Origin: a virus
UHGV virus genome: UHGV-0092341
Direction: 5' to 3' (one strand)
DNA: 31,377 bases
Position numbers and translations under genes: made by a program. Below are positions 6,144 through 10,403 of the stretch, in pieces. The notes beneath the pieces are model-generated. The model did no database searches. It saw only the letters and a program-made list of their open reading frames with translations, and was not told the DNA's origin. Numbering within the stretch: position 1 is the first letter of the stretch; each line of letters begins with the position of its first letter.

Positions 6144-6332
6144 TCAGGCTGCCTGAGCTGTTGATTTCAGCCCCAGTTTCACGGCGATTTCATGGGATTT
6201 ACCGTAACGGGCTTTGGTCTGCCCGTTGAGAACGCGGTATACCTCATTGCGGTTGTAGCCGTTTTCTTCTGCCCAGCGGGTGAACGTGATCCCGCGCTGG
6301 CGAAAGAGGGCTTTGACTTGTTCTGCAGTCAT
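6144..6332 (-). CDS. Ner/Cro-like small DNA-binding protein, first early gene
   Basis: 62 aa; strong SD AAGGAG; first gene of leftward operon, divergent from repressor as in Mu c/ner. Confidence 0.6.
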   Translation of the reverse strand: MTAEQVKALFRQRGITFTRWAEENGYNRNEVYRVLNGQTKARYGKSHEIAVKLGLKSTAQAA

Positions 6333-6432
6333 CGTTGTCTCCTTTGTTGATGCAATGATGTTTGCCTTATGTGTGATAGATTATGGTGCAGATTACCTCA
6401 CCAGTCAACTTAAAGAGTGCAGAAAAACTCAC
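6333..6432. promoter_or_regulatory. divergent early/repressor control region (promoters and operators expected)
   Basis: 100-bp AT-rich gap between divergent starts of Ner-like gene (6332) and repressor (6433); operators not mapped. Confidence 0.4.
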
Positions 6433-6771
6433 ATGATCGGGTTACGTATTAAAGAAGAAAGAGAGCGTCTATCTCTTACACAGCAAGGGTTGGCTGATGC
6501 TATAGGTGTGGCAAAGAGAACTTTCATTGATTGGGAAAAAGATCGCACTTCTCCTACTGCAGTGCAGTTATCTGCACTATCAGAAATCGGTGTAGATATT
6601 TTGTATGTAGTTACTGGGGTGCGGAGTCAGCCTGTTGTTGCACCGTATGTGTCACAAGAAAAGAAAGAGTTAATGGATGCATTCGACGAAATGAGCCCCG
6701 AACAACGGAGGGCAATTCTTGAGGTCGGCAAAGTCTTCATTCAACCAAAACCGAGCAAACTCGCAGGCTGA
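6433..6771 (+). CDS. XRE-family HTH repressor (c-repressor analogue)
   Basis: HTH LSLTQQGLADAIGVAKRTFIDWEKDRTSP. Start taken at ATG 6433 because the track's 6280 start would overlap the Ner-like gene. Confidence 0.65.
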   Translation: MIGLRIKEERERLSLTQQGLADAIGVAKRTFIDWEKDRTSPTAVQLSALSEIGVDILYVVTGVRSQPVVAPYVSQEKKELMDAFDEMSPEQRRAILEVGKVFIQPKPSKLAG

Positions 6772-6857
6772 TTCTGACCCGGACACAAAGGGCGCGTGGT
6801 TGATCTGGATGCTTTCAGAAAACATCGCCAGTGACATAGTGGAAGTTGTCTGGTTTA

Positions 6858-6884
6858 CCGGAAAGCATTGCGCTTTCCGGTTTT
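6858..6884 (+). terminator. rho-independent terminator-like hairpin (9-bp stem CCGGAAAGC/GCTTTCCGG, 5-nt loop, then TTTT)
   Basis: Read directly from sequence; lies between convergent repressor and methyltransferase 3' ends. Confidence 0.5.
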
Positions 6885-6887
6885 GCT

Positions 6888-7652
6888 TCAGAAGTTGCAG
6901 ATTACCAGTTCACGGCGCGGCGTGGGTTTCCCCGCCAGACTGTAGTTGATATTCACCGTCTGTATGTTCAGTTCAGTGAACACCCGACGCATCTGCGGAA
7001 TGTCGTTCACCGAGATAATCATCTTTCCTCTGATGCACCGGGCCAGTTCTGCGAGTAGTGTGTAGTTCTCTTCAGGAAAATCCACACCATAGCCTTCCGT
7101 CCCCAGATAGGGCGGATCACAGTAGAACAGCGTGTGCGGACGGTCATAACGCTTAATGCACTGGTGCCAGTCCATGTGTTCTATCACCGTTCTGGAAAGC
7201 CGCAGGTGTGCCGCTGACAGTTCTTCTTCAATACGTAGCAGATTGAAGCGTGGCGGAGATGTGGTGGAGGTGCCGAAGCTGTGCCCTGCCACCTTGCCAC
7301 CAAATGCCTGCTTCTGGAGGTAGTAGAACCGTGCCGCACGCTGGATATCCGTCAGTGTTTCTTCCGGGGTGATCTGCAGCCATTTGTAGATCTGCCGGCT
7401 GACCAGCGCCCATTTGAACTGGCGGATAAATTCTTCCAGGTGATGTTTTACCACCCGGTACAGATTCACCAGTTCACCATTGATATCGTTAATGACTTCG
7501 AGCTTGCCGGGAGTCTTGAGAAAATAGAGCGCAGCTGCGCCGCAGAACGGCTCCACATAACATTCATGCGCAGGAAACAGCGGCAGGATGTGTTTTCCCA
7601 GGCGGCGTTTGCCACCAATCCATGGAACGATGGGTAATGTCTGCGTTTTCAT
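6888..7652 (-). CDS. Dam-like N6-adenine DNA methyltransferase (D12 class), orphan
   Basis: 254 aa; motif I FCGAAA near N-terminus and motif IV DPPY (FYCDPPYLG) near C-terminus; no adjacent restriction-enzyme-like gene. Confidence 0.8.
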   Translation of the reverse strand: MKTQTLPIVPWIGGKRRLGKHILPLFPAHECYVEPFCGAAALYFLKTPGKLEVINDINGELVNLYRVVKHHLEEFIRQFKWALVSRQIYKWLQITPEETLTDIQRAARFYYLQKQAFGGKVAGHSFGTSTTSPPRFNLLRIEEELSAAHLRLSRTVIEHMDWHQCIKRYDRPHTLFYCDPPYLGTEGYGVDFPEENYTLLAELARCIRGKMIISVNDIPQMRRVFTELNIQTVNINYSLAGKPTPRRELVICNF

Positions 7653-7693
7653 AATCTGTAAGCCTTTTACAATTATTAAAAATATGGCAGGCT

Positions 7694-7794
7694 AGTCTGG
7701 TCTCGCGAGACTGACTGAACCTCGGTCGGCTCACAGCGCATTCCTGTGGGACGATGGCCAGCCCGGCTTTCGGGTGCCGGGCTGGTCGTTCTTT
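7694..7794. other. structured intergenic element: 12-bp perfect palindrome (7700-7711) plus 10-bp-stem GC hairpin (7758-7785) followed by T-rich tract
   Basis: Read directly; hairpin plus TCGTTCTTT resembles an intrinsic terminator in plus orientation although no plus-strand gene precedes it. Confidence 0.3.
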
Positions 7795-7841
7795 CATGAT
7801 GCGGCAGGGATAGTGGGATTTCTGTTAATGTGGTTTAGGGA

Positions 7842-8057
7842 TTATCCGGGGCGATTTTCTGACCTTATCTGGTCCAGGGCATAAGTGATCCCTTCTGCAA
7901 AAACAGAAGTATCAAACTGCTTTTGTATTTCCTGAAAATGAACAGTAGCACGACAGATACTCAGTTCTCCGCGATGTAACCGGATAATATCTTCCAGAAT
8001 ATTGTTCACTGCTTCAGCACGGCGCTGATGTTCTGTTAACGTTAATCGGGGATTCAT
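7842..8057 (-). CDS. hypothetical protein (71 aa)
   Basis: Perfect SD AAGGAG with 6-nt spacer before ATG at 8057; no motif recognised. Confidence 0.5.
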   Translation of the reverse strand: MNPRLTLTEHQRRAEAVNNILEDIIRLHRGELSICRATVHFQEIQKQFDTSVFAEGITYALDQIRSENRPG

Positions 8058-8460
8058 GATGCACTCCTTAAATGATGATTTTTATGTACTCACCGGCAAA
8101 ATATTCTGCCGATTACTGAACACGCATCCGGCACCTCAGGTTTTGATTTATTCTGGTTTTTTCGATATCCCGGACCAGGTTGATCACGACCAGAAAAAGT
8201 GCCGGTATTTTATTGATACGCTGATATGGCTTCGGGATAACAGCTATATTCGTTACTCTCAGTTGCTGGCTGTGGGAGCGGCTGATGTCGTCCTCACGGA
8301 AAAAACGCTCTGTCTGCTCAATGCCATGCCGACCTTTCTGCAGCCCCGGCCCGTACCATTTAAAGAGTTGCTTCTGGATGCAGTAAAAACCGGCGAAAAT
8401 GCAGTCATCGCTGAATGCGTATCCCGGATTATGCGTTACGTGTTTAATGAACGTAAGTGA
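8056..8460 (+). CDS. hypothetical protein (134 aa), AT-rich, nested antisense between two minus-strand genes
   Basis: Only long ORF across 8058-8435. Start codon overlaps the divergent 71-aa gene start; 3' end overlaps the P-loop gene 3' end by 25 nt. About 39% GC over the first 105 nt (hand count). Weak RBS. Confidence 0.45.
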   Translation: MMHSLNDDFYVLTGKIFCRLLNTHPAPQVLIYSGFFDIPDQVDHDQKKCRYFIDTLIWLRDNSYIRYSQLLAVGAADVVLTEKTLCLLNAMPTFLQPRPVPFKELLLDAVKTGENAVIAECVSRIMRYVFNERK

Positions 8461-9179
8461 GGTTTATCTGCTGTCTGCATAATCCCGATAGCCAGTGCGA
8501 GGGGAAGTAATTCCGGGGAAACTCTTTCAAACAGCGATGCCCATTCTCCTCTCGCCATCACTCTGTCCAGTCCGCCCCCCAGCTGCATTTCAGCAATCTT
8601 CCTGATTTCCCGGAACAACGCCGCTTTGATCTCTTCATGCTCAGCTTTATTTTCCGGTGTCAGAATGTATTCGTCGAAGAACCGGGGAAGCTGGTTAACG
8701 GGGATTGTGTTCACCGGGAGGTGTTCCTGCTTCCCGTACTTCGGGGCCGAAAAACATTCTGTTGGCTGACCGGTGAGTTTACGTAACTCCTTCATGAGCA
8801 GTTCCTGATCGTAAACTGTCATCAGTGCCGCAATGGTGGCATGCAGTGCATCGGGCAGTATCCAGGGTTGTCGGCCCGTGGGGCATATAACATCCAGCAG
8901 CTCATTCGTCCGACAGATACGCTCCTCGCCGTATGACAACAGGTCCTGTCCTGTGTATTCCTCCAGCCTGATCACTGTGCCAGCCCGTGGCTTCTGCCAG
9001 GTCGTCAGATCATCGCCACTCATACGGCGCTCATTCTCCACGTCAGCAGCATCGACAATGACGCTGTTTCCGAGTTCCTGTTTCACCACTTCCTCTATCC
9101 GCGCCAGTACGTAACTTTTACCGCTGCCCACAGGACCGGACACGGTGACAGTGATGACCGGATTCAGTGTATGTGTCAT
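8436..9179 (-). CDS. P-loop NTPase/kinase-like protein (247 aa), function unknown
   Basis: Walker A GPVGSGKS at residues 15-22, candidate Walker B VIVDAAD about 20 residues later; SD GAGGAG 8 nt upstream; divergent from late operon. Confidence 0.65.
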   Translation of the reverse strand: MTHTLNPVITVTVSGPVGSGKSYVLARIEEVVKQELGNSVIVDAADVENERRMSGDDLTTWQKPRAGTVIRLEEYTGQDLLSYGEERICRTNELLDVICPTGRQPWILPDALHATIAALMTVYDQELLMKELRKLTGQPTECFSAPKYGKQEHLPVNTIPVNQLPRFFDEYILTPENKAEHEEIKAALFREIRKIAEMQLGGGLDRVMARGEWASLFERVSPELLPLALAIGIMQTADKPHLRSLNT

Positions 9180-9237
9180 GTTGCATTCTCCTCTGTGAAT
9201 AATTCATCGTTTATCCTGCACATCCCGTATCCCCGGC

Positions 9238-9288
9238 TCTCTTAACGCGCTTTAAAATCCTTCGCGCCCTGTATTTGTGATGCTGTCT
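9238..9288 (+). promoter_or_regulatory. candidate late promoter P-lys (conserved bipartite motif, copy 1)
   Basis: TCTCTTAA-N4-CTTTAAAATC-N20-ATGCTGTCT, ending 22 nt before the first late gene; same architecture at three other sites. Confidence 0.5.
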
Positions 9289-9309
9289 CCACCAGACAAG
9301 GAGACACAC

Positions 9310-9660
9310 ATGAAAAACCTGAAAAAATTCATTCCCCCTGTTAAAAAACCTCGCCTCAGCGGCTGGCTGCTGACCTCAGTGCTGTTGCTGGGCACCATCG
9401 CTCTGGTCTCGCCACAGCAGTTGCCTGTTGTGATCTACAAGCTGGCACTCATCACGCTGGCAGCAGTGCTGGGTTACTGGCTTGACCGTTCGCTCTTCCC
9501 TAAAGCCCGTCCCGGTCAGTACCTGAAACATGAAGACAGGCTGATGGCTGATGGGCGTTTCCCTGTACAGACCGGCCTTCACCTGGTGTTTTCTGCTGCG
9601 TTAATCCGCCGTGCACTGATTGTTGCAGCAGTCTGTCTGGCCGTAGCGATGGGGCTTTAA
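9310..9660 (+). CDS. holin-like membrane protein (three predicted TM segments)
   Basis: SD AAGGAG before ATG 9310; three hydrophobic helices; first gene of lysis cassette, stop overlaps endolysin start. Confidence 0.55.
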   Translation: MKNLKKFIPPVKKPRLSGWLLTSVLLLGTIALVSPQQLPVVIYKLALITLAAVLGYWLDRSLFPKARPGQYLKHEDRLMADGRFPVQTGLHLVFSAALIRRALIVAAVCLAVAMGL

Positions 9661-10403
9661 TGATGACTATTTATATGTACTGGCCTCAGGTTGTCTGGGC
9701 CGTGCTGGTATTGCTGGGGCTGGGCAGCGAACTGGCCCGCCACGGGCAGGCCCAAACGGGTAAGCACAGTTTCTGGTGGCGGCTCTTTGGTTCAGTAACA
9801 GTAGCCTGGCTGCTCTGGTGTGGCGGCTTCTTCAGTCAGGCCCGCGCAGCGCAGCCTCCGCAGGCTGCGCTGCAGTATCGCGATGATGTGATCCGTAATG
9901 CCCGGCTTGAATGGGGACTGTCTGCGCCGGTGGCCGATTTCGCTGCGCAACTGCATCAGGAAAGCGGCTGGCGACCTGATGCGGTCTCGCCGGTTGGTGC
10001 TCAGGGACTGGCGCAGTTCATGCCCGCCACTGCTGACTGGATAAGTCAGCTGATGCCGGGGCTTAACAGCCGTGAGCCGTTTAATCCGGCATGGGCCATC
10101 CGGGCGCTGGTCAGCTATGACCGCTGGCTGTGGCAGCGCGTCAGCGCCGCCAACGACTGCGAACGTATGGCCATGACACTGTCGGGCTATAACGGTGGTC
10201 TGGGCTGGGTACAACGGGACAGGCAGCTAGCATCACAGAAAGGCCTGGACAGCACCCGCTGGTTCGGGCATGTCGCCACGGTGAATGCCGGACGCAATGC
10301 TGCCAGCTGGCGGGAGAACCGCCATTATCCACAACGCATCCTGCACGAGCTGGCACCGCGATATCTCACATGGGGAGGCTGCAGCTGTGTGGCATCTGGT
10401 TAA
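9660..10403 (+). CDS. endolysin, lytic transglycosylase (SLT domain) with N-terminal hydrophobic segments
   Basis: SLT motifs QESGW, GLAQFMPATA, SGYNGG; N-terminal ~70 aa carry two hydrophobic stretches. Confidence 0.8.
   Translation: MMTIYMYWPQVVWAVLVLLGLGSELARHGQAQTGKHSFWWRLFGSVTVAWLLWCGGFFSQARAAQPPQAALQYRDDVIRNARLEWGLSAPVADFAAQLHQESGWRPDAVSPVGAQGLAQFMPATADWISQLMPGLNSREPFNPAWAIRALVSYDRWLWQRVSAANDCERMAMTLSGYNGGLGWVQRDRQLASQKGLDSTRWFGHVATVNAGRNAASWRENRHYPQRILHELAPRYLTWGGCSCVASG

What the first reader, a model, noticed from the sequence alone, without database searches (positions are those of the whole stretch)
8056..8460. 134-aa ORF nested antisense between two opposite-strand genes, overlapping both
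Its ATG (8056) overlaps the ATG of the divergent 71-aa gene (8057-8055), and its last 25 nt overlap the 3' end of the convergent P-loop gene. It is the only long ORF in the 375-nt gap, is AT-rich and has a weak RBS. Either it is a real gene in an unusual antisense arrangement (mutual transcriptional interference, toxin/antitoxin-like control), or the gap is a long non-coding spacer of a polycistronic minus-strand mRNA and the ORF is spurious.
Basis: seen in the sequence. Interest (0 to 1): 0.5.

Follow-up and report, generated by a model that had tools for sequence, protein, structure and literature searches.

The report
Conserved head-to-head phage gene pair
The 134-codon ORF is a real, conserved prophage gene for a small acidic winged-helix protein, and in many temperate phages it sits start-codon-on-start-codon against a small opposite-strand gene, so each gene's ribosome-binding site lies inside the other's coding sequence.

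Summary
ORF 8056-8460(+) shares 2 nt of its ATG with the ATG of the 71-aa gene (tetranucleotide CATG) and 25 nt with the 3' end of the P-loop gene.

It is not spurious:
- It matches phage family phrog_2266 over its full length (E 1e-43).
- It has frame-conserved homologues down to about 25% identity (192 clusters).
- The P2-like subfamily is under strong purifying selection (median dN/dS 0.08).
- It gives a confident winged-helix model (pLDDT 91).
- RefSeq already annotates it as a hypothetical protein.

The window is a BcepMu-like transposable prophage of E. coli. The locus is present in 499 of 5426 complete genomes, including ST131 strain EC958.

The new point is the arrangement. In all 11 paired lineages sampled (BcepMu-like and P2-like phages, metagenomes), a 63-90-aa minus-strand gene starts at the same CATG. 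Each gene's Shine-Dalgarno lies in the partner's first codons. The pair is a mobile, lower-GC two-gene cassette found in accessory and defence-hotspot slots.

My best reading is either/or expression through obligatory antisense overlap of the two translation-initiation regions. This is inferred, because no transcript data were available. Protein function is unknown. A toxin-antitoxin reading has no positive support: with ORF134 as the antitoxin it is argued against, and the converse was not tested.

A conserved structured RNA with a terminator lies upstream on the same strand.

The parts
8056..8460 (+). ORF134: gene for a 134-aa (or 133-aa, if it starts at ATG 8059) winged-helix protein of family phrog_2266.
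7842..8057 (-). 71-aa partner gene (phrog_4490), predicted to be a three-helix protein. It starts on the same CATG.
   Evidence: AF2 gives three helices, pLDDT 76. It is homologous to the small partners of five other lineages: 19.3 bits against an HMM built without it, reached by 0 of 200 shuffles. It is 36% identical to the Serratia partner.
8055..8058 (.). CATG junction, where the two start codons overlap by 2 nt.
   Evidence: The same junction is present in 11 of 11 paired lineages.
8064..8069 (-). Shine-Dalgarno AAGGAG of the 71-aa gene, 6 nt before its ATG. It lies inside codons 3-5 of ORF134.
   Evidence: Sequence. Duplex with the anti-SD is -8.5 kcal/mol, and an equivalent site is present in all paired lineages.
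8048..8052 (+). Shine-Dalgarno-like GGGGA of ORF134, lying inside codons 2-4 of the 71-aa gene.
   Evidence: Duplex energy is -5.7 kcal/mol, and equivalents are present in all paired lineages.
8436..9179 (-). Convergent P-loop gene (phrog_3787). It is a variable neighbour whose last 25 nt overlap ORF134.
   Evidence: In Salmonella only its N-terminal 74 aa are conserved. In Serratia it is replaced by an 89-aa gene homologous to its C-terminus. It is absent from the P2-like cassettes.
7675..7801 (+). Conserved structured RNA element ending in an intrinsic-terminator-like hairpin (7756-7787) plus a T-run. It is on the same strand as ORF134 and upstream of it, and may be a leader/attenuator or a small RNA.
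   Evidence: MFE -56.8 kcal/mol, z -4.0. Alignment and consensus structure. Covariance-model hits occur only in the BcepMu-like loci, plus a second copy directly upstream of an unpaired paralogue in L008. 96% of cells are paired and 8 pairs carry compensatory changes, reached by 0 of 500 shuffles. No Rfam family matches.
7646..7673 (+). Promoter-like site TTTTCA-16-TACAAT just upstream of the RNA element. It is a consensus match only.
   Evidence: The number of such sites in the region is not above the shuffle expectation.
8094..8111 (.). Near-perfect 18-bp palindrome CGGCAAAATATTCTGCCG in codons 13-19 of ORF134. Its core GGCAAAATATTCTG is identical in Serratia. It is also the left end of a natural deletion.
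   Evidence: Function unknown.
6888..7652 (-). Dam-type DNA adenine methylase, downstream of the 71-aa gene on the minus strand. It is a neighbour, not part of the cassette.
   Evidence: Pfam PF02086, E 2.7e-27. In Salmonella L044 a DUF7424 gene takes its place.

Best explanation
ORF134 is a genuine protein-coding gene. It encodes a small, mostly acidic winged-helix protein with a MarR/PadR-like topology and two extra C-terminal helices.

It is one half of a conserved, horizontally mobile two-gene cassette of temperate phages. The other half is a 63-90-aa helical protein encoded on the opposite strand. The two genes are joined head to head on the tetranucleotide CATG, and each gene's Shine-Dalgarno lies inside the partner's first five or six codons.

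Both genes keep a Shine-Dalgarno, so both mRNAs must have 5' leaders. The two mRNAs are therefore perfectly complementary across both translation-initiation regions, and their promoters must face each other from inside or beyond the partner gene.

The most likely working principle is either/or expression. Transcription of one gene interferes with the other through promoter collision and occlusion. Where both RNAs coexist, the duplex buries both ribosome-binding sites.

In this window the 71-aa gene lies in line with the minus-strand genes P-loop, 71-aa and Dam. Expression of that unit would run antisense through all of ORF134. A plus-strand transcript reaching ORF134 would run antisense through the 71-aa gene.

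What the two proteins do to each other or to the cell is not known. My guess is a regulator or effector (the winged-helix protein) and its antagonist or partner (the small protein), expressed in opposite states of the prophage.

Shown: the gene is real, its fold, the conservation of the cassette, and the embedded Shine-Dalgarno sites. Inferred: overlapping transcripts and reciprocal silencing. Speculative: the roles of the proteins.
For: The gene is real:
- phrog_2266 E 1e-43.
- 53%-identical Serratia homologue in frame.
- 192 clusters at E<=1e-3.
- Median dN/dS 0.08 for the large gene and 0.19 for the small gene across 47-49 P2-like pairs.
- PGAP calls it.

The cassette is conserved:
- The same 2-nt start overlap occurs in E. 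coli, Serratia and Salmonella BcepMu-like prophages, in P2-like phages Midge, FSL SP-004 and ST147-VIM1phi7.1 plus IMG/VR relatives, inside P2-like tail and lysis operons, next to a HipA-like gene, and in a metagenome contig.
- SD-like sites for both genes are present in 11 of 11 lineages. Three of five unpaired relatives have no SD-like site on the opposite strand and two have only weak ones.

The cassette is mobile and moron-like:
- It has lower GC than its surroundings.
- Its neighbours differ in every lineage.
- In P2-like phages it lies inside the gpA-gpQ defence hotspot (PMC9122126).

The initiation regions are open. Both fold less stably than shuffles, z +0.55 to +1.8 in six of eight and about -0.2 in the two Salmonella (L044) ones, as expected for sites used for translation.

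Co-transcription of the small gene with the upstream gene is plausible. In natural deletion variants the 71-aa gene sits about 55 nt behind the P-loop gene. In P2-like phages a strong terminator follows the small gene on its own strand.
Against: - No transcript, transcription start site or ribosome data were available.
- Consensus scans found no convincing sigma-70 promoter for either gene in any lineage.
- There is no extended block of synonymous-site constraint that would mark an embedded promoter.
- Within E. coli the alleles are too similar for dN/dS to be informative.
- The family is acidic (median pI 5.1) and has no conserved basic residues in the putative recognition helix. DNA binding is therefore doubtful.
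- The P2-type and L037-type small partners show no detectable homology to the window type. 'One cassette' rests on position and on the large gene.
- The orientation of the cassette relative to surrounding operons is not uniform.
- ORF134 can be lost, so it is not essential to the prophage.
Confidence: 0.6

Rival explanations
1. The winged-helix protein is a transcriptional regulator of the neighbouring accessory, defence or toxin cargo, comparable to the BrxR/CapW-type regulators that accompany many defence systems. The small protein would be its co-regulator. The head-to-head layout would then simply be a compact divergent regulatory unit.
For: - The fold is a winged helix of MarR/PadR type.
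- The neighbours are often defence- or toxin-like. They include a P-loop NTPase, an AbiJ-like gene, a HipA-like gene, Fic, and proteins with a DUF262-like N-terminal motif, ATPase-like proteins and a gene the record annotates as 'polymerase' in P2 hotspots.
Against: - The cassette also occurs alone inside P2-like tail and lysis operons, with no cargo.
- The cargo lies on either side, in either orientation, and is never the same.
- The protein family is acidic and lacks conserved basic residues.
- There is no Pfam, NCBIfam or PADLOC regulator match.
Confidence: 0.15
2. The pair is a toxin-antitoxin or abortive-infection module. One protein would be toxic and the other would neutralise it, with the antisense overlap acting as an RNA-level safety catch.
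For: - It is a two-gene, mobile, prophage-borne unit that is often near toxin or Abi genes.
- The small partner evolves quickly.
- The arrangement forces the two RNAs to be antisense to each other.
Against: - Neither protein has a toxin or antitoxin domain or any PADLOC match.
- The genes are divergent, not a co-transcribed operon.
- ORF134 is deleted (L033, L034) or frameshifted (L014) while the small gene is intact. This rules out ORF134 as an indispensable antitoxin.
- About 7 of 499 E. coli genomes carry only partial copies of the locus.
Confidence: 0.1
3. The acidic winged-helix protein is an anti-defence or host-takeover factor and the small protein controls it. This would be functionally like an anti-CRISPR gene with its Aca repressor inserted as a moron in Mu-like phages.
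For: - The family is small and acidic: median pI 5.1, and 84% of members are below pI 6.
- It is inserted moron-style into late operons and accessory slots of Mu-like and P2-like phages.
- The Midge record notes a weak HHpred resemblance to T7 gp5.5/5.7.
Against: - No similarity to any known inhibitor was found by sequence or fold.
- The small protein's model has three long helices and no family match; whether it is HTH-like was not tested.
- The layout is divergent, not the acr-aca operon layout.
Confidence: 0.1
4. ORF134 is a chance ORF in a non-coding spacer of a minus-strand polycistronic mRNA.
For: - The PhiKM GenBank record leaves it unannotated.
- The RBS in front of the first ATG is poorly spaced.
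- Some prophages have lost it.
Against: - Full-length family match.
- Homologues down to about 25% identity with the frame kept.
- dN/dS 0.08.
- pLDDT 91.
- Only 0.7% of shuffles give a comparable stop-free run.
Confidence: 0.02

Closest known systems
Excludon-type loci (Listeria; Wurtzel et al. 2012, PMC3377988; review PMC4179725)
   Same: These are divergent genes whose transcripts overlap in antisense, so that expressing one side suppresses the other. It is an either/or logic built into gene layout.
   Different: Excludons use a long 5' UTR or antisense RNA that spans a neighbouring gene, and the coding starts are well separated. Here the two start codons themselves overlap and each SD is inside the partner's ORF. 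The overlap of transcripts is inferred here, not observed.
Face-to-face promoter switches of P2 (Pe/Pc) and 186 (pR/pL) (own knowledge of the literature)
   Same: They occur in temperate phages, including the P2 family. Convergent promoters give overlapping 5' transcripts and transcriptional interference between a lysogenic and a lytic unit.
   Different: Those switches have an intergenic control region with operators, and known repressor and Cox/Apl proteins. This cassette has no intergenic DNA at all, its proteins match no described protein family, and it sits in accessory slots rather than at the immunity region.
Phage morons (own knowledge)
   Same: It is a small autonomous insertion of deviating GC content between conserved phage genes, including inside late operons, and it is variable between related phages.
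   Different: Classical morons are single transcription units with a promoter and a terminator. This one is a bidirectional two-gene unit with fused starts.
MarR/PadR-type winged-helix regulators
   Different: There is no Pfam match to the MarR, PadR or any other HTH family. The family is acidic and has no conserved basic residues. Dimerisation and DNA binding were not tested.
Cis-antisense control of phage and toxin genes (P22 sar/ant, symE/symR, type I toxin-antitoxin systems; own knowledge)
   Same: An RNA complementary to a translation-initiation region blocks translation of the target.
   Different: In those systems the antisense partner is a non-coding RNA. Here both partners are mRNAs of conserved proteins, and the complementarity is reciprocal.

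Membership tests
PHROG phrog_2266 (phage protein family, function unknown) | Full-length match to the family profile. | tested here: met
   E 1.1e-43, residues 2-133 against profile positions 1-142 of 144. The P2-like, Serratia and metagenome relatives hit the same PHROG.
Winged-helix fold | Helix-turn-helix followed by a beta-hairpin wing. | tested here: met
MarR / PadR transcription-factor families | Sequence membership, meaning a Pfam model above its threshold. | tested here: not met
   0 Pfam families for the window protein at E<=1. No consistent family among 62 relatives. No NCBIfam match.
MarR / PadR transcription-factor families | DNA binding through a basic recognition helix and wing. 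| tested here: inconclusive
   Conserved positions are hydrophobic (F9, P25, W58, L59, L80, K83, L85, P92). The family has a median pI of 5.1. No binding assay is possible with these tools.
DUF2513 (name given by UniRef to homologue P0012) | Match to the Pfam DUF2513 model. | tested here: not met
   P0012, P0005 and P0001 give no DUF2513 match even at E<=10.
Type II toxin-antitoxin module | Two co-directional genes in one operon, with recognisable toxin or antitoxin domains. | tested here: not met
   The genes are divergent. There are no toxin or antitoxin families in Pfam, NCBIfam or PADLOC.
Type II toxin-antitoxin module | The antitoxin cannot be lost while the toxin is kept. | tested here: not met
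   This holds for the case where ORF134 would be the antitoxin. ORF134 is deleted in L033 and L034 and frameshifted in L014 while the small gene stays intact. The converse case was not informative.
Excludon / antisense-overlapping divergent pair | Divergent genes whose transcripts overlap in antisense. | not testable with these tools
   Overlap follows only if both SDs are used, and SD-like sites for both genes are present in 11 of 11 lineages. No RNA data were available.
Phage moron | Autonomous insertion between conserved phage genes, with deviating base composition. | tested here: met
   The insertion sites differ: the BcepMu accessory slot, the P2 gpA-gpQ hotspot, a P2 tail operon and a P2 lysis operon. 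GC is 43-46% against 55.5%.
Phage moron | Own promoter and terminator. | tested here: inconclusive
   No promoter above chance was found. There are terminators after the small gene in P2-like phages and a plus-strand terminator element upstream in the BcepMu-like loci.
Known anti-phage defence systems (PADLOC-DB v2) | Match to a defence-system protein model. | tested here: not met
   0 families for ORF134, the 71-aa protein and P0012. The P-loop protein gives only sub-threshold P-loop noise.
Rfam RNA families (for the upstream structured element) | Covariance-model match. | tested here: not met
   No match in 7653-7841 at E<=1.

The most novel reading that the evidence does not exclude
The cassette is a self-contained genetic toggle of a kind not yet described. 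Two protein-coding genes are fused at their start codons, so their mRNAs mutually mask each other's ribosome-binding sites. This would give strictly exclusive expression of a winged-helix effector in one prophage state and of its antagonist in the other. In BcepMu-like phages a novel structured leader or terminator RNA upstream would gate entry of plus-strand transcription into the toggle. The module would have spread as a unit between unrelated temperate phage families.
Probability: 0.25. Interest if true: 0.75.

Novelty: new variant of a known kind. Interest (0 to 1): 0.55.

Why it matters
- The pair is widespread and has no assigned function. The locus is in about 9% of complete E. coli genomes, including the pandemic ST131 strain EC958. 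The P2-type version is on more than 1000 Salmonella contigs and also occurs in Klebsiella, Enterobacter and Citrobacter.
- It sits in the accessory and defence-hotspot regions that are now mined for new immune systems. It could be miscounted there as part of a neighbouring system.
- Gene callers often miss the small partner or call it on the wrong strand, and one GenBank record misses ORF134 itself.
- If the inferred reciprocal antisense control is real, this is a very compact natural either/or switch made of two coding genes with no intergenic DNA. That would be of interest for phage regulation and for synthetic biology.

Tried and rejected
- **Annotation searches.** Pfam, NCBIfam and PADLOC gave nothing for ORF134 or the 71-aa protein.
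- **UniRef name 'DUF2513'.** This name for a homologue could not be reproduced with Pfam.
- **Solved and predicted structures.** PDB sequence searches gave only noise. BFVD gave nothing below E 0.04. Foldseek of the small protein against the PDB gave nothing below E 1. The afdb50 library was not available.
- **Domain fusions.** Longer family members show none. One sub-threshold hit to ABC-3C 'MC2' (E 0.08) was not pursued.
- **Homology between small partners.** The window-type and P2-type small partners are not related by hhalign: probability 0.2% and 0.9%.
- **Leaderless-mRNA idea.** I rejected it because both genes keep SD motifs in all lineages. The only -10-like hexamer next to a start (L044) is too close to it.
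- **Self-sequestration of the SD.** I tested whether each SD pairs with the partner's anti-SD-like complement in the same mRNA. The hairpins are weak and no better than shuffles.
- **Embedded promoters.** Looking for synonymous-site constraint found nothing extended.
- **dN/dS within E. coli.** There are too few substitutions.
- **Genome-contig scan.** It returned a single locus.
- **Profile-based locus search.** The 62-sequence alignment was too divergent for the tool.
- **Literature.** Searches by accession numbers and by 'DUF2513' or 'overlapping start codons' found no description of the pair.
- **Frameshifted small gene.** Its contig was too error-ridden to use.
Full report
**1. The observation**

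The ORF exists as described. It runs 8056-8460 on the plus strand, starts with ATG and encodes 134 aa.
- The divergent 71-aa gene (7842-8057, minus) starts at the complement of 8055-8057, so the two ATGs share 2 nt within the tetranucleotide CATG.
- The convergent 247-aa gene with a Walker-A motif (8436-9179, minus) overlaps the last 25 nt of the ORF.
- No other ORF longer than 49 aa lies in the 378-nt gap.
- A stop-free run this long occurs in 0.7% of shuffles of the gap.
- The ORF and the 71-aa gene have 46% and 43% GC, against 55.5% for the window.
- GGGGA at 8048-8052 is a poorly spaced SD for ATG 8056 but a well spaced one for the in-frame ATG 8059.

**2. Context**

The window is a BcepMu-like (Bcepmuvirus) transposable prophage of E. 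coli.
- It is 100% identical over 7800-8500 to the chromosome of strain CUVET21-PYO5, and 95.7% identical over 7600-9400 to phage PhiKM.
- On the minus strand lie the early genes, including the transposase. They are followed by a plus-strand HTH repressor-like gene (6280-6771).
- Next comes an accessory slot holding the Dam methylase, the 71-aa gene, ORF134 and the P-loop gene. From 9277 onward lie the plus-strand holin, SLT and late genes.
- BcepMu itself carries different genes in this slot.
- The locus is present in 499 of 5426 complete E. coli genomes, always on the chromosome. One of them is ST131 strain EC958.

**3. The ORF is a real gene**
- It matches phrog_2266 over its full length, E 1.1e-43.
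- PGAP annotates it at exactly these coordinates as a hypothetical protein, WP_031606340.1. The PhiKM record leaves it out.
- A Serratia BcepMu-like prophage encodes a 53%-identical protein in the same place.
- P2-like phages Midge, FSL SP-004 and ST147-VIM1phi7.1 encode proteins about 30% identical to it.
- A profile search of 1.84 billion representatives found 192 clusters at E<=1e-3, nearly all 125-155 aa long.
- Among 12 diverse P2-like loci the median pairwise dN/dS is 0.08 for the large gene and 0.19 for the small one.
- Within E. coli there are too few substitutions to judge.
- All public names are 'hypothetical protein'.

**4. The protein**
- AlphaFold2 with a 62-sequence alignment gives pLDDT 91.4 and pTM 0.86. 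The model has a long N-terminal helix, a strand, a second long helix ending in the conserved W-L-x3-G-Y-I, a beta wing, an 'LTxKG' helix and two C-terminal helices.
- There is no Pfam, NCBIfam, PADLOC, PDB-sequence or BFVD relative.
- The family is acidic. Median pI is 5.1 and 84% of members are below pI 6. The window protein has pI 6.8. The conserved positions are hydrophobic.
- The fold is therefore that of a transcription factor, but DNA binding is not assured.

**5. The conserved cassette**

This is the main result. Everywhere I could read DNA around a reasonably close relative, a minus-strand ATG ORF of 63-90 aa starts on the same CATG as the large gene.
- The lineages are: E. coli, Serratia and Salmonella BcepMu-like prophages; a metagenomic BcepMu-like phage next to an AbiJ-like gene; the P2-like phages and their IMG/VR relatives; insertions inside a P2-like tail operon and a P2-like lysis operon; a locus next to a HipA-like gene; and a short metagenome contig. 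That makes 11 lineages.
- In five of these the public gene calls had missed the small gene, or had called an ORF on the wrong strand.
- In all 11 lineages an SD-like motif for the small gene lies in codons 2-6 of the large gene. In the window it is a perfect AAGGAG, 6 nt from the ATG. An SD-like motif for the large gene lies in codons 2-5 of the small gene.
- Five more distant, unpaired relatives lack the CATG partner. Three of them have no SD-like motif on the opposite strand.
- The window's 71-aa protein is homologous to the small partners of five other lineages. It scores 19.3 bits against an HMM built without it, reached by 0 of 200 shuffles.
- The P2-type (phrog_2454) and L037 partners show no detectable similarity to it.
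- The small protein is predicted to be three helices, pLDDT 76, with no informative structural neighbour.

**6. What belongs to the unit and what does not**
- The neighbours vary. The P-loop gene shares only its N-terminal 74 aa with the Salmonella neighbour.
- In Serratia the P-loop gene is replaced by an 89-aa gene that matches only its C-terminus.
- Dam is replaced by a DUF7424 gene in Salmonella.
- In P2-like phages the pair lies between portal gene Q and replication gene A, with different cargo on both sides. The cargo includes proteins with a DUF262-like N-terminal motif, ATPase-like proteins, Fic, a gene the record annotates as 'polymerase' and an IS element. This is the hotspot of antiviral systems described by Rousset et al. 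(PMC9122126).
- The tail-to-tail overlap with the downstream gene is specific to each lineage: 25 nt here, 37 nt in Serratia, 4 nt in Salmonella, and none in P2-like phages.
- ORF134 is dispensable. L033 and L034 carry a deletion of 8110-8427 that leaves the small gene, its SD and the P-loop gene intact. L014 has a frameshifted ORF134. About 7 of 499 E. coli genomes have only partial coverage of the locus.

**7. How it probably works**

Both genes keep an SD, so both mRNAs must have leaders.
- The leader of each mRNA is then the antisense of the partner's start region, and the promoters must face each other.
- In the window the small gene is in line with the P-loop gene and Dam on the minus strand. 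The deletion variants show it can sit directly behind the P-loop gene. Minus-strand transcription from the 9180-9276 region would therefore cross all of ORF134 in antisense.
- In P2-like phages a strong intrinsic terminator follows the small gene on its own strand.
- Conversely, any plus-strand RNA that reaches ORF134 must cross the small gene in antisense.
- This anatomy predicts either/or expression by transcriptional interference and by duplex formation over both ribosome-binding sites. The logic resembles an excludon or the P2/186 face-to-face promoters, but here it is compressed to zero intergenic DNA.
- The two initiation regions are themselves unstructured. Folding z-scores are +0.55 to +1.8 in six of eight and about -0.2 in the two Salmonella (L044) ones. 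They look like sites that ribosomes use, and self-sequestration of the SD is not supported.
- I could not locate promoters. All of this step is inference.

**8. A related element found on the way**

The 189-nt spacer between Dam and the 71-aa gene holds a conserved, strongly structured plus-strand element at 7675-7801.
- Its MFE is -56.8 kcal/mol, z -4.0.
- It ends in a 12-bp GC hairpin followed by a T-run.
- It is conserved in the Serratia and Salmonella prophages even though the left-hand neighbour differs.
- It contains G-U pairs that only work on the plus strand.
- 96% of cells are paired and 8 pairs carry compensatory changes, reached by 0 of 500 shuffles. Slid controls give 34-55% paired. 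The caveat is that there are few independent lineages and the alignment was fitted to the model.
- A covariance model finds it only in BcepMu-like loci. A second, divergent copy (75 bits) lies about 45 nt upstream of an extra, unpaired phrog_2266 paralogue in L008.
- Rfam has no match.
- In every case it lies upstream of a gene of this family on the same strand. It could therefore be a leader with a conditional terminator that gates plus-strand transcription into the cassette. It could also be a small RNA antisense to the Dam leader, or simply a terminator and recombination boundary. I could not distinguish these.

**9. Comparison with known systems, and verdict**

The ORF itself is already in the databases as a hypothetical protein and as a PHROG family. 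What appears undescribed is the conserved fusion of two coding genes at their start codons, with reciprocally embedded ribosome-binding sites, moving as a unit between Mu-like and P2-like temperate phages. Literature searches by accession and by keyword found nothing.
- It works like an excludon or a face-to-face promoter switch. This is inferred.
- It behaves like a moron. This was tested and met for insertion pattern and GC content.
- It has a MarR-like fold but fails sequence membership in that family.
- It fails the tests I could apply for a type II toxin-antitoxin module or for a known defence system.

I rate it a new variant of a known kind, of moderate interest. The gene is certainly real. 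The regulatory mechanism is plausible and directly testable. The biological role is still open.

Noticed in passing
window 7675-7801 (+); also L039 4658-4783, L044 3665-3792, L008 2985-3111 and 3620-3746: A conserved, strongly structured plus-strand RNA element ending in an intrinsic-terminator-like hairpin. Folding z-score is -4.0, there are 8 covarying pairs, and there is no Rfam match. It always lies upstream of a phrog_2266 gene on the same strand. It is a candidate attenuator, leader or small RNA.
   Followed up: partly
L008 3157-3537 (+): One E. coli prophage carries a second, unpaired phrog_2266 paralogue (126 aa). It is inserted between Dam and the cassette and is flanked by two copies of the structured RNA element.
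   Followed up: partly
window 8110-8427; L033 and L034 about 4054: A natural 318-nt deletion removes the body of ORF134 but keeps the 71-aa gene, its SD and the P-loop gene. Its left end lies in the 18-bp palindrome at 8094-8111. L014 has a frameshifted ORF134.
   Followed up: yes
window 8094-8111: A near-perfect palindrome, CGGCAAAATATTCTGCCG, lies inside ORF134, 37-54 nt upstream of the 71-aa gene's ATG. Its 14-nt core is identical in Serratia despite 52% protein identity. It could be an operator or just chance.
   Followed up: partly
window 8436-9179 (-): The P-loop protein (phrog_3787) is modular. Its N-terminal 74 aa are 55% identical to a Salmonella neighbour. Its C-terminal roughly 50 aa are 46% identical to a stand-alone 89-aa Serratia gene. 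It has no family assignment beyond P-loop noise.
   Followed up: partly
L049 2278-2520, L050 2254-2487, L037 251-506, L051 1477-1738, L052 2173-2496: Public gene calls miss the small minus-strand partner, or call an implausible plus-strand ORF in its place. The real partner starts on the CATG.
   Followed up: yes
L001 (PhiKM, PQ738613) 9459-9838: The GenBank record of the closest cultured phage leaves ORF134 unannotated, although the protein there is 98.5% identical.
   Followed up: yes
L003 174-198 (-), L004 3649-3671 (-): A strong, conserved intrinsic terminator follows the small gene in P2-like phages. In Midge it falls inside the annotated plus-strand CDS CPTMidge_047, so that CDS may be spurious.
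   Followed up: no
window 6857-6881: A 10-bp hairpin terminator lies between the convergent repressor-like gene (6280-6771, +) and Dam (6888-7652, -). It insulates the accessory slot from plus-strand read-through.
   Followed up: no
window 6888-7652 (-): This is a prophage-borne Dam-family (D12 class) adenine methylase, co-directional with the 71-aa gene. The same prophage is in ST131 strain EC958, whose lineage-specific methyltransferases have been studied (PMC4659465; I did not read it for this gene).
   Followed up: no
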